Below, piece by piece: positions 11,899-13,970 of a stretch of DNA of 16,197 nucleotides. The stretch lies in the UHGV virus genome UHGV-1963518; one strand, written 5' to 3'. The DNA is from a virus. Under the pieces are notes generated by a model, which saw nothing but the letters and a program-made list of their open reading frames with translations, made no database searches and had not been told where the DNA came from. A program made the translations under genes and the position numbers. Position 1 is the first letter of the stretch. Each line of letters opens with the position of its first letter.

Positions 11899-12338
11899 GC
11901 GGGGCGTTATAGTAAGCCAACAGCCAAGCCAAACATTAAGCCTAAGGGTAGGGCTTTTTTGTGGCTGGTGGCGTAATGCCAACATTGTTACATGATGTTT
12001 TGAGGTATTATCTGCATGTTCGTGGTGAGGAACCACCAGAACTGATGAGCTTTTGTTTATGCATGTACTGCATGAAAACTGTCCTATAAAGTGGGGGTAG
12101 GTGTGCTGAGGAGAACATTGTGAGCTACGCCAAATTAAATTGTGTCGGGGGTGAACAAGTTTCTTGATAGGTGTCAGTAGGCACCTATAGTTATAGGCTT
12201 CTTCAATTTTGTGTGCACAATATTTTGTATTGATTGGGGATAGGGTTGCACGCAAAATTAAAAAATGTATATTTATTAACGTGTATTTGATGATTTTTAA
12301 AAAAAATATTTCTCTATGTTTATCATAAAAGGTTTTTT

Positions 12339-13937
12339 ATGAGCGTGGCAATAAAAACAATGACACCAATGTCATATTCTATAAAAGTTGATGCGATTAA
12401 GAAAAGATTGTCATATTTTAGTGATGTTTCTTTTTTGAGAAATTTTTATGAACACTTCCAAAAAATAAGGGATGTCGAGGTGGGTATTGTTTCCAATTTC
12501 CCTTGGTGTTGCTATCTGGCAATGAAATGGAAGTTTTGCATGAAGGAAAAAAAGCCTGCAAAAGAAATGAGTAAAAATGATTTTATTGATATTATCAACT
12601 TAATCTATAACTTGCAACTAGAAGCATCTAATTTAATCGTTGATGATAAAGTTATGCTAAGCCTTAGACGAATGGTGATAAATCAGTTGCTTTATCAATC
12701 AACTGATAAATTTAATGCTAATTCATTAACAAGACAGTATATTTGGTATTGCTTGAATGATGAATCATATTATAAAGATAAGTTTTTAGAATGTACTGGT
12801 TTACATTTGGAAAGCTATTACAAAATGGCATGTTATTTTACTGCTATTTCATGTATTAATCCTGATGTAGAATCAGAGGTTATTCCATTTAAACACTTGA
12901 TAATAAACTTGGTTCCGATATTTGGTCCGGAACAAGTGAAAAAATTTTTGGAATTAACATGCTTAAAAATTGATGGTGTAAGAGATTTTATTGCCCCATA
13001 TAAATTGGATAAAAACATTACCGCTGAGTATTATGAAGATACACCATTCCTCAGTAAACCAATGTTTTTAGATGGCGATGGTGTAGTGATATTATGCAAA
13101 AGAATCATGAAGTCAGGGTTTGTCAACCTAGTTCCAGAATTGTTCAAGCAGGTCTATAAGGAATCTTATAAAGAAAAATTTGGTAAGACGATGGAACTTT
13201 ATATTTCTCGCTTTCTTGATAAGTACAATTATAACTTTAAGACTGAAAGGGAGGTTAAGAAGATTTATAGTGATAATGCAATAAAAAATTGCAAGTCCGT
13301 AGATTTTGTTATTTCAGAGGGAGATTCAATAGTTTATATTGACTCGAAGGCAATAGAGCCTGCAAAGTTCGTTAAAACATCTAATAATGCTCAGTTGCTA
13401 AAGGAAAGGTTGAATAAGAGTTTTATTAAAGGGATTTATCAAGGTCAGGAATGTGCTTTTAACTTAAATAAAATAGAGATGAGAAAACCATCTTCGAAAG
13501 ATTCAATGTTAATTGTGGTGCATCGGGATCATCATATATCAAATGCAATGGTTGTGCAGGATTTTATTAACCCTGATTTATCAACTGAGTTATCTGAAAA
13601 ATATCATAGTACCCCCATTGATCTAAAAAGAATTTACTATATAACAATTGATGAGTTCGAATTATTACTTATGATGTGTAAACAGAAAGAACTATCTATT
13701 AATGAGTTTATTGATATGTGTGTGGAAAAAGATTCATTCCCTCATACTCAGAAGTCTAATCTAAGCATGCACATATATGAATTTGCACCAGAGGGTATTG
13801 ATGATGATCAATTGATTGTAAAAGGAAGAGACTTACTGATTGATGATGTTATTGAAAATATGAAAGAGAGTGCATCAAAATGGTCTGGGAAAGTTGATAT
13901 GTATCTTAAAATAAAAGATTATATTTTTAATTGGTAA
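12339..13937 (+). CDS. Orphan 532-aa AT-rich cargo protein; candidate defence / nuclease-like protein
   Basis: RBS AAAGG upstream. GC about 32 percent against about 50 percent for the core. Preceded by an AT-rich non-coding region of about 440 bp and followed by a perfect 12-bp hairpin. Central segment VDFVISEGDSIVYIDSKA (nt 13299-13352) resembles a PD-(D/E)xK core. No Walker A. Confidence 0.8.
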   Translation: MSVAIKTMTPMSYSIKVDAIKKRLSYFSDVSFLRNFYEHFQKIRDVEVGIVSNFPWCCYLAMKWKFCMKEKKPAKEMSKNDFIDIINLIYNLQLEASNLIVDDKVMLSLRRMVINQLLYQSTDKFNANSLTRQYIWYCLNDESYYKDKFLECTGLHLESYYKMACYFTAISCINPDVESEVIPFKHLIINLVPIFGPEQVKKFLELTCLKIDGVRDFIAPYKLDKNITAEYYEDTPFLSKPMFLDGDGVVILCKRIMKSGFVNLVPELFKQVYKESYKEKFGKTMELYISRFLDKYNYNFKTEREVKKIYSDNAIKNCKSVDFVISEGDSIVYIDSKAIEPAKFVKTSNNAQLLKERLNKSFIKGIYQGQECAFNLNKIEMRKPSSKDSMLIVVHRDHHISNAMVVQDFINPDLSTELSEKYHSTPIDLKRIYYITIDEFELLLMMCKQKELSINEFIDMCVEKDSFPHTQKSNLSMHIYEFAPEGIDDDQLIVKGRDLLIDDVIENMKESASKWSGKVDMYLKIKDYIFNW

Positions 13938-13940
13938 TTA

Positions 13941-13970
13941 AGCAAGGGTGTTATTATCAACACCCTTGCT
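13941..13970 (+). terminator. Perfect 12-bp stem hairpin downstream of the cargo gene (terminator or binding palindrome)
   Basis: AGCAAGGGTGTT-ATTATC-AACACCCTTGCT, starting 4 nt after the stop codon. No clean T-run follows directly, so intrinsic terminator function is uncertain. Confidence 0.5.

What the first reader, a model, noticed from the sequence alone, without database searches (positions are those of the whole stretch)
11970..13970. Orphan AT-rich 532-aa gene in the attR-proximal cargo slot: candidate undescribed single-gene anti-phage system
The gene at 12339-13937 is about 32 percent GC in an element whose core is about 50 percent. It sits alone after roughly 440 bp of AT-rich non-coding DNA and is closed by a perfect 12-bp hairpin. 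Its position, between the replication/packaging genes and attR, is where P4-like satellites and PICIs are known to carry variable defence cargo. I recognise no family. There is no Walker A, but the segment V-D-F-V-I-S-E-G-D-S-I-V-Y-I-D-S-K (nt 13299-13349) has the hydrophobic-strand/D ... hydrophobic-strand/D-x-K layout of a PD-(D/E)xK nuclease core. A large standalone protein with a possible nuclease core in a satellite hotspot is consistent with an abortive-infection or restriction-like effector.
Basis: partly seen in the sequence, partly recalled or inferred. Interest (0 to 1): 0.85.

Follow-up and report, generated by a model that had tools for sequence, protein, structure and literature searches.

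The report
Known GapS1 anti-phage gene on satellite
The AT-rich 532-codon gene is real and is an anti-phage nuclease carried as swappable cargo by a phage-satellite-like island, but it belongs to the already described GapS1 (GAPS1) family, and a near-identical E. coli allele has already been shown experimentally to block coliphages.

Summary
Observation confirmed. The ORF at 12339-13937 (532 aa) has 30.5% GC against 48.2% for the element core. It follows 440 bp with no annotated gene, ends in a perfect 12-bp hairpin, and is the last gene before attR of a ~14.7-kb thrW-integrated, PICI-like island.

D322 and D335-x-K337 are the PD-(D/E)xK catalytic residues: D322 and K337 are invariant in 44 close and 136 distant homologues, the AlphaFold model (pLDDT 90.5) matches FokI/BspD6I-type nuclease domains and Upx, and the slot holds at least five other cargoes in sister elements, including PARIS and candidate system PDC-M04.

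The "undescribed" claim is wrong. The protein scores 441.8 bits (cutoff 320) against NCBIfam NF047931 antiphage_GapS1. It aligns over 479 residues to Vibrio parahaemolyticus GapS1, with D313/K328 (the residues mutated in the founding study) on D322/K337. Its first 380 nt are 99.5% identical to the synthesised gene of EGQ2075554.1, an E. coli homologue shown to protect against coliphages (Mahata et al., bioRxiv 10.1101/2023.03.28.534373).

[quoted passage not shown] Novelty: already known. Interest is low.

The parts
1..53 (+). 3' part of tRNA-Thr (thrW). The attL core TCCTATTATCGGCACCA lies at 37-53.
   Evidence: Rfam tRNA match at 1-50, cut off at its 5' end. Alignment to thrW of APEC E123. 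tRNA-Thr is annotated 167 bp upstream of the integrase gene.
220..1434 (+). Tyrosine integrase of the carrier island.
   Evidence: Pfam Arm-DNA-bind_3, Phage_int_M and Phage_integrase.
11938..11962 (+). Terminator-like hairpin plus T-run that closes the conserved backbone operon, just before the cargo breakpoint.
   Evidence: Terminator scan. Homology to sister elements ends at about 11972.
11973..14194 (+). Exchangeable cargo cassette (2,222 bp, AT-rich) holding gapS1 with its own leader and 3' hairpin.
   Evidence: BLAST breakpoints against sister thrW elements L002 and L005: homology stops at 11972 and resumes at 14195. 14 of 20 genomes that share the left junction lack the cassette.
11973..12338 (+). 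AT-rich leader (GC 0.352) with candidate sigma-70 promoters at 12164-12191 (TTGATA-16-TATAGT) and 12297-12326. The promoter is unproven.
   Evidence: The number of promoter-like sites is not above the shuffled expectation (14 found against 13.6 expected).
12339..13937 (+). gapS1: 532-aa GapS1-family anti-phage protein. It has an N-terminal helical region of about 230 aa, a PD-(D/E)xK nuclease core at about 240-450, and a C-terminal helical region.
   Evidence: NCBIfam NF047931, 441.8 bits against a cutoff of 320. 99% identical cluster named GapS1. AF2 model with pLDDT 90.5. Fold matches.
13194..13349 (+). Catalytic core codons: E286 (13194-13196), D322 (13302-13304), D335 (13341-13343), K337 (13347-13349).
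   Evidence: Invariant or near-invariant in 44 homologues. Among 136 distant representatives: D 136/136, K 136/136, D or E 136/136, E 129/136. Aligned to D313, D326 and K328 of V. parahaemolyticus GapS1.
13941..13970 (+). Perfect 12-bp hairpin 4 nt after the stop codon. It may be a terminator or an mRNA stabiliser. No U-tract follows.
   Evidence: dG -21.1, z -4.83. Not called by the terminator scan.
14195..14713 (+). Conserved attR-proximal backbone of the island, shared with sister elements that carry other cargo.
   Evidence: 90% identity to L002 and L005 over 14195-14516, continuing to about 14731.
14714..14729 (+). attR core, a degenerate copy of the thrW 3' end (one base deleted).

Best explanation
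The gene at 12339-13937 is gapS1, a member of the described GAPS1/GapS1 family of single-protein anti-phage systems. It rides as an exchangeable cargo cassette (11973-14194) in the attR-proximal hotspot of a ~14.7-kb PICI-like island integrated at thrW.

Shown here: family membership; full-length homology to Vibrio GapS1; conservation of the catalytic E...D...(D/E)xK residues; a confident PD-(D/E)xK (FokI/BspD6I-like) fold flanked by helical regions; a standalone organisation, with a terminator-like site upstream (which suggests its own promoter) and a 3' hairpin; and replacement of the cassette by other defence systems in sister islands.

Taken from the literature on the family: the Vibrio founder needs D313 and K328 for defence. 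T7 escapes it through mutations in the capsid protein Gp10. Co-expression of Gp10 causes non-lethal growth arrest. A near-identical E. coli allele (EGQ2075554.1) protects against diverse coliphages.

Inferred for this allele: the helical regions hold the nuclease inactive until a phage capsid protein is sensed. The nuclease then cleaves a nucleic acid that has not yet been identified, which arrests the cell and stops phage production. This protects the host clone and with it the resident island.
For: - NCBIfam antiphage_GapS1, 441.8 bits (cutoff 320), model 1-455/455.
- The 99%-identical cluster and RefSeq loci are named gapS1.
- 378/380 nt identical to the synthesised gene of the tested homologue EGQ2075554.1, which protected E. 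coli.
- BLASTP against V. parahaemolyticus GapS1: 25% identity over 479 aa, E = 6e-56, with D313/D326/K328 on D322/D335/K337. This lies in the 24-29% range the paper reports for its E. coli homologues.
- Catalytic columns are invariant.
- AF2 pLDDT 90.5, pTM 0.90. E286 lies in a helix, D322 at the start of strand 323-327, and D335/K337 in strand 330-337.
- Founder biology.
- Cargo exchange.
- Relatives sit in other phage and satellite hotspots: last gene of a Salmonella P4-like satellite, next to the portal gene of a P2-like prophage, and at the ends of Klebsiella temperate phages.
Against: - No experiment was done on this exact allele. It differs by at least M11V and I43V from EGQ2075554.1, and only the first 380 nt of that construct are held.
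- The trigger and the outcome were established for the Vibrio protein (25% identical) and for a different E. coli homologue in its native strain, not for this clade.
- The nucleic-acid target of any GapS1 is unknown (Discussion).
- PADLOC v2.0.0 (2023) gives no hit; it has no hit for this protein, and it dates from the same year as the GAPS1 preprint.
- No promoter is demonstrated, and promoter-like sites are no more frequent than in shuffles.
- The accession of the founder (WP_005477165.1) was not seen among the listed members of the Vibrio clusters I aligned.
Confidence: 0.93

Rival explanations
1. It is an orphan FokI/BspD6I-like type IIS restriction endonuclease, or some other constitutively active nuclease, that cuts unmodified incoming DNA rather than responding to a phage-protein trigger.
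Against: The 2.2-kb cassette contains no methyltransferase. No DNA-recognition domain was detected by Pfam or by PDB sequence search. The family founder is activated by capsid protein alone and arrests growth without killing. Fold similarity to a catalytic domain does not imply the same regulation.
Confidence: 0.03
2. It is a satellite life-cycle gene, for helper-phage interference, packaging redirection or island replication, rather than general host defence.
For: It lies downstream of the replication and regulatory genes of a PICI-like element. PICIs are known to encode helper-interference functions in that region.
Against: The gene is absent from most sister islands that have nearly identical backbones, where unrelated defence systems replace it. 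The same family occurs on Vibrio GMT islands, next to conjugation genes in Klebsiella, and in P2-like prophages. Its base composition is foreign to the backbone.
Confidence: 0.02
3. It is a selfish addiction or toxin module that stabilises the island, for example by arresting cells that lose it. On this view any anti-phage effect is incidental.
For: Activation of the family founder causes growth arrest. It is a nuclease toxin-like effector on a mobile element.
Against: No antitoxin partner ORF lies in the cassette. Deleting a native E. coli homologue produced a viable strain that became phage-sensitive. Tested E. coli homologues could be expressed without reported toxicity, whereas GAPS3, 5 and 8 were reported as toxic.
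Confidence: 0.02

Closest known systems
GAPS1 / GapS1 (Vibrio parahaemolyticus VPaI-6, WP_005477165.1; Mahata et al., bioRxiv 10.1101/2023.03.28.534373; NCBIfam NF047931)
   Same: Single ~530-aa protein. Homologous over the full length: 25% identity over 479 aa to V. parahaemolyticus GapS1. Same catalytic D...(D/E)xK with identical D-to-K spacing of 15 residues. Passes the curated family model.
   Different: Only ~25% identical. Carried by a thrW PICI-like island rather than a GMT island. The trigger specificity and phage range of this clade were not determined here.
E. coli GAPS1 homologue EGQ2075554.1 (tested in the same paper, Fig. 6a)
   Same: 378/380 nt identical over the part of the synthetic gene that is held. 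The common allele P0047 starts with the same 126 residues as EGQ2075554.1 and differs from the window protein at 5 of 532 residues.
   Different: At least M11V and I43V. It was tested from an arabinose-inducible plasmid, not from its native leader and island context.
Upx (single-protein dual PD-(D/E)xK defence nuclease; PDB 9wuf; PMC13099982)
   Different: Upx is 1,212-1,272 aa with two nuclease domains and a regulatory middle domain. There is no detectable sequence similarity (7-11% identity in the structural alignments). The Upx paper does not mention GAPS1.
FokI / N.BspD6I / R.BspD6I type IIS restriction endonuclease cleavage domains
   Different: No recognition domain, no cognate methyltransferase, and a different biological logic (triggered dormancy rather than restriction).
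Gram-negative PICIs (e.g. EcCICFT073; PMC6092414) and P4/P2 defence hotspots
   Same: The carrier has int, an int-alpA RNA, AlpA, a P4-type primase, a size of ~15 kb, a tRNA att site, and accessory genes at the 3' end. The terminal slot holds interchangeable defence systems.
   Different: Helper phage, induction and packaging of this island are untested. No capsid-morphogenesis or clear terS gene was identified; the 178-aa HTH protein gives only a weak TerS-like hit.

Membership tests
GapS1 / GAPS1 anti-phage family | Scores above the curated cutoff of the family HMM (NCBIfam NF047931 antiphage_GapS1) | tested here: met
   441.8 bits against a cutoff of 320, E = 2.9e-132, model positions 1-455 of 455 on residues 20-478.
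GapS1 / GAPS1 anti-phage family | Full-length homology to V. parahaemolyticus GapS1 | tested here: met
   BLASTP 25% identity over 479 aa, E = 6e-56 (P0206), and 23% over 546 aa, E = 1e-44 (P0219). The founder accession itself was not confirmed among the listed cluster members.
GapS1 / GAPS1 anti-phage family | Conserved PD-(D/E)xK active site equivalent to D313 and K328, the residues whose alanine substitution abolishes defence | tested here: met
   D322 and K337 align to D313 and K328. They are invariant in 44 + 136 homologues.
GapS1 / GAPS1 anti-phage family | PD-(D/E)xK phosphodiesterase fold toward the C-terminal half | tested here: met
   [not shown]
GapS1 / GAPS1 anti-phage family | Single-gene system with no obligatory partner | tested here: met
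   The 2,222-bp cassette holds only this ORF. Neighbours differ in the Salmonella, Klebsiella and P2-like prophage contexts.
GapS1 / GAPS1 anti-phage family | Protection against phage infection | not testable with these tools
   Published for EGQ2075554.1, which is 99.5% identical over the 380 nt available. Not measured for this exact allele.
GapS1 / GAPS1 anti-phage family | [quoted passage not shown] | not testable with these tools
   Shown for the Vibrio protein with T7 Gp10, and growth arrest was shown for the native ZH142-A homologue. Inferred here.
Phage-inducible chromosomal island (Gram-negative PICI), as carrier | int, alpA, pri-rep gene order; ~15 kb; specific att site; no phage structural or lysis genes; accessory genes at the 3' end | tested here: met
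   Integrase 220-1434, int-alpA RNA 1479-1546, AlpA 2555-2752, primase 6448-8262, att cores 37-53 and 14714-14729 (14.7 kb). Criteria taken from PMC6092414.
Phage-inducible chromosomal island (Gram-negative PICI), as carrier | Induction, replication and packaging by a helper phage | not testable with these tools
   No helper is known and no cos or terS function was demonstrated. I therefore call it PICI-like.
Type II/IIS restriction-modification | Cognate methyltransferase and a DNA-recognition domain | tested here: not met
   No MTase in the cassette or adjacent to it. No recognition-domain hit.

The most novel reading that the evidence does not exclude
GapS1 may share a roughly 340-residue architecture with Upx, beyond the minimal PD-(D/E)xK core. 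That would make the two single-protein systems divergent relatives that use the same logic: a helical module holds a FokI-like nuclease in check until a phage structural or packaging protein binds. The 2026 Upx paper held here does not mention GAPS1. As cargo of a PICI-like satellite, this allele could also be tuned to spare the satellite's helper phage while blocking competing phages. Neither idea is excluded by my data, and neither is demonstrated.
Probability: 0.2. Interest if true: 0.4.

Novelty: already known. Interest (0 to 1): 0.1.

Why it matters
As a discovery it matters little. The family was defined and experimentally characterised in 2023-24, NCBI's pipeline already names the gene, and an almost identical allele has been tested.

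The result is still useful in three ways:
- It shows that the first-stage reader can spot a real defence gene and its catalytic motif from raw sequence alone.
- It documents that the attR-proximal end of thrW PICI-like islands in E. coli is a sharply bounded exchange slot (11973-14194), holding at least six alternative cargoes. One of them, a DUF4747 protein with a 199-aa partner, has no match in PADLOC v2.0.0.
- It notes a structural resemblance between GapS1 and Upx that could guide work on the still unknown target and activation mechanism of GapS1.

Tried and rejected
- PADLOC v2.0.0 on the protein gave no hit. The library dates from 2023, the same year as the GAPS1 preprint, so this says nothing against defence.
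- Pfam gave only a sub-threshold TPD (PF14811) hit, E = 1e-3, 19 bits against a cutoff of 27, over residues 273-349. I did not rely on it.
- PDB sequence searches with the single protein and with the 44-sequence profile gave nothing even at E <= 10. The nuclease assignment therefore rests on the predicted fold and on motif conservation.
- The word-indexed profile search returned the same 45 enterobacterial proteins and did not reach Vibrio. The exhaustive HMMER search was needed.
- I looked for the founder accession WP_005477165.1 and for RefSeq WP_001526660 in the paper's supplements and in cluster listings. They were not found as such. I used V. parahaemolyticus GapS1 clusters with matching D313/K328 numbering instead.
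- Promoter scan: candidate sites exist but are no more frequent than in shuffles.
- The 3' hairpin is not a canonical intrinsic terminator because it lacks a T-run.
- The minus-strand ORF 11803-12255 (150 aa, TTG start) upstream of gapS1 overlaps the conserved 59-aa gene, has no Pfam family, and is not annotated in RefSeq genomes. I treat it as spurious.
- I considered a chance ORF in AT-rich DNA and rejected it.
- The repeat 48-478 / 14724-15142 is not an assembly or circularisation artefact. It is internal to the contig and only 90-99% identical, and complete genomes show the same tandem arrangement of a new island in front of the truncated integrase of the vat island.
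Full report
**1. The observation**

The ORF at 12339-13937 (+ strand, ATG to TAA, 532 aa) exists as described.

- Its GC content is 0.305 (GC3 0.285), against 0.482 for the rest of the element (220-11972). The sliding profile falls to 0.28-0.32 across 12250-14250.
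- The upstream gene ends at 11898, which leaves 440 bp with no annotated gene.
- The 12-bp hairpin is perfect (13941-13952 / 13959-13970, 6-nt loop, dG -21.1 kcal/mol, z = -4.83). It has no trailing T-run, so the terminator scan does not call it.
- There is no Walker A motif, and the peptide V321...K337 is at nt 13299-13349.
- An open frame of this length in DNA of this composition has probability ~4e-21. The longest frame in 2000 shuffles was 184 codons, against 547 observed.

**2. The surroundings**

The window is one whole 16,197-bp contig. It begins inside tRNA-Thr (thrW), whose 3' end occupies 1-53.

- A tyrosine integrase follows at 220-1434.
- Then come an Rfam int-alpA RNA (1479-1546), an AlpA-type regulator (2555-2752), an AntA-family protein, an Icd-like segment, a P4-type primase (6448-8262), ProQ/FinO, PerC, and small genes of unknown function.
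- A degenerate copy of the thrW 3' end lies at 14714-14729. The island is therefore ~14.7 kb, and gapS1 is its last gene before attR.
- Beyond attR the window contains a truncated second integrase (14884-15222, 99% identical to the 5' end of the island's own int) and a MarR-family gene. In APEC IMT5155 these precede the vat autotransporter gene. The island therefore sits in tandem in front of an older thrW island.

The organisation fits the published description of Gram-negative PICIs: int, alpA, pri-rep, ~15 kb, accessory genes at the 3' end (PMC6092414). Helper dependence was not tested, so I call it PICI-like.

**3. Identity of the protein**

- PADLOC v2.0.0 (2023) gave nothing. Pfam gave only a sub-threshold TPD hit.
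- A homology search found a 99%-identical cluster of 271 sequences that NCBI and UniRef name "GapS1 family protein", plus relatives in Salmonella, Klebsiella, Pantoea, Cronobacter, Pectobacterium, Serratia and others.
- The protein scores 441.8 bits (curated cutoff 320) against NCBIfam NF047931 antiphage_GapS1 and covers all 455 model positions.
- RefSeq annotates the same locus as gapS1 in four of the six complete E. coli genomes that carry it (6 of 5,426). The other two still call it a hypothetical protein.

**4. What is known about the family**

GAPS1 was defined by Mahata et al. (bioRxiv 10.1101/2023.03.28.534373) as a single-protein system from a Vibrio parahaemolyticus GMT island.

- HHpred predicted a PD-(D/E)xK domain, and D313A and K328A abolished defence against T7.
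- T7 escape mutants carried substitutions in the capsid protein Gp10.
- Co-expressing Gp10 arrested growth without loss of viability.
- Three E. coli homologues (EGQ2075554.1, EJP5250929.1, WP_152927281.1) protected against diverse coliphages. Deleting a native homologue in strain ZH142-A sensitised it to phage BASEL21.

Supplementary Table S3 of that paper holds the start of the synthetic genes. The 380 nt available for EGQ2075554.1 match window 12339-12718 at 378 positions (M11V, I43V). The most widespread allele in the 90% cluster (P0047, seen on 68 contigs) begins with exactly the EGQ2075554.1 N-terminus and differs from the window protein at 5 of 532 residues. An allele of this very gene has therefore already been tested.

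**5. Membership tests run here**

- An exhaustive HMMER search with the 44-sequence profile found 1,208 50%-identity cluster representatives at E <= 1e-3.
- In 136 representatives of at least 400 aa, the column of D322 is D in all, K337 is K in all, D335 is D (94) or E (42), and E286 is E in 129. This is the classic E...D...(D/E)xK signature.
- Eight representatives have D313 and K328 in their own numbering. Two of their clusters are V. parahaemolyticus GapS1 proteins.
- Direct BLASTP of the window protein against one of them gives 25% identity over 479 residues (E = 6e-56), with D313/D326/K328 aligned to D322/D335/K337. That identity is in the 24-29% range the paper gives for its E. coli homologues.
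- The founder accession itself was not among the accessions listed, which is a small remaining gap.

**6. Structure**

AlphaFold2 with the 44-sequence alignment gave a confident model (pLDDT 90.5, pTM 0.90).

- Layout: an all-helical N-terminal region (~10-230), a mixed alpha/beta core (~240-450) and a helical C-terminal region.
- E286 sits in helix 275-295, D322 at the start of strand 323-327, and D335/K337 in strand 330-337. This is the expected placement for a PD-(D/E)xK core.
- Foldseek ranks Upx first (E = 3.5e-5), followed by BspD6I, Can2, Hjc resolvases and R2 endonucleases.
- Upx is a recently solved single-protein dual-nuclease defence system with a FokI-like D1161/E1176/K1178 site, reported to be activated by a phage protein (PMC13099982). 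That paper does not mention GAPS1.
- There is no sequence-level match to any PDB chain.

**7. The slot is a defence hotspot**

Homology between the window and sister thrW islands stops at ~11972, just after a terminator-like hairpin at 11938-11956, and resumes at 14195. This defines a 2,222-bp cassette. At the same place, related islands carry:

- a DUF4747 protein plus a 199-aa partner (APEC IMT5155, FREC5);
- PDC-M04A/B, a candidate defence pair (CFSAN018748);
- a 662-aa Schlafen/AlbA_2 protein (strain 83972);
- a type II methyltransferase with an NsnA/PD-T4-2-like DUF262 protein and a HEPN nuclease (APEC E19019);
- PARIS AriA/AriB (GCM74-1-1);
- nothing (strain 357900).

Of the 20 complete genomes that share the 73-bp left junction, only 6 have gapS1.

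GapS1 relatives occupy comparable positions elsewhere:
- the last gene of a P4-like satellite after proA in Salmonella;
- next to the portal gene of a P2-like prophage, which from my own knowledge of the P2 map is the position of P2 old;
- beside conjugation genes in Klebsiella;
- at the ends of 17 deposited phage genomes, 16 of them Klebsiella temperate phages.

**8. Mechanism**

Shown here: family membership, catalytic residues, fold, standalone cassette, mobility of the cassette.

Taken from the family literature: dependence on the nuclease residues, sensing of the capsid protein, and non-lethal growth arrest.

Inferred for this allele: the helical regions keep the FokI-like nuclease inactive until a phage capsid protein is recognised. 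Cleavage of a still unknown nucleic acid then halts cell growth and phage production.

Rivals and why I rate them low:
- Orphan restriction enzyme: disfavoured by the absence of a methyltransferase or recognition domain.
- Satellite life-cycle gene: disfavoured by the variability of the slot.
- Addiction toxin: disfavoured by the viability of a deletion mutant of a native homologue.

**9. Verdict**

The claim of an undescribed system fails. This is gapS1, a named and experimentally characterised family, and essentially this allele has been tested. Novelty: already known. Interest: low.

Residual points of interest are the sharply bounded multi-cargo slot of thrW PICI-like islands, the DUF4747 pair in that slot (no PADLOC match), and the structural resemblance between GapS1 and Upx.

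Noticed in passing
window 1479-1546 (+): Rfam int-alpA RNA (RF02996), 45.5 bits against a gathering score of 35.8. It lies between the integrase stop codon (1434) and the next ORF (1557).
   Followed up: no
window 14724-16197; also L002 17709-20501: Beyond attR lies the start of another thrW island. It has a truncated Arm-DNA-binding integrase fragment (14884-15222), whose first ~300 nt are 99% identical to the 5' end of the island's own int (repeat 179-478 / 14843-15142), and a MarR-family regulator. In APEC IMT5155 the vat autotransporter toxin gene comes next. The PICI-like island has inserted in tandem in front of the vat island.
   Followed up: partly
L002 15362-16854 (APEC IMT5155); L005 6949-8441 (FREC5): In sister islands the gapS1 cassette is replaced by a DUF4747 protein (Pfam E = 9.5e-98) plus a 199-aa protein with no Pfam family. 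Neither has a PADLOC v2 hit. DUF4747 is mentioned in papers on prophage-mediated defence in actinophages and on CapK/CapS-regulated immune operons. Given the slot, this pair is a candidate defence system; whether it has been tested in E. coli was not checked.
   Followed up: partly
L003 7311-9299 (E. coli 83972): The same slot in a sister island next to dinD holds a 662-aa Schlafen/AlbA_2 + HATPase_c_4 protein. It has weak PADLOC similarity to pAgo-associated and SIR2-associated N-terminal domains.
   Followed up: partly
window 3623-5209 (+): A 528-aa open frame matches only the Icd-like cell-division-inhibitor model, and only in its last ~45 residues. Annotated sister genomes instead call a short icd-like gene and a minus-strand YlcI/YnfO gene there. 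AT skew is strongly negative across 4000-4750. The long ORF is probably not a real gene.
   Followed up: no
window 11486-11500 / 11620-11634 and 11535-11552 / 11671-11688: Two exact short direct repeats, each spaced ~135 bp apart, upstream of the 59-aa gene that precedes the cargo slot. This suggests a duplicated segment. BLAST against sister islands also shows overlapping alignments at 11615-11686.
   Followed up: no
L010 12452-13276 (P2-like prophage contig carrying a 57%-identical GapS1 relative): The same P2-like prophage that has a GapS1 relative beside its portal gene also carries a TIR-domain gene (CAP12-PCTIR_TIR) between tail genes S and V. That gives two defence-type cargo genes in one prophage.
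   Followed up: no
[not shown]
   Followed up: partly
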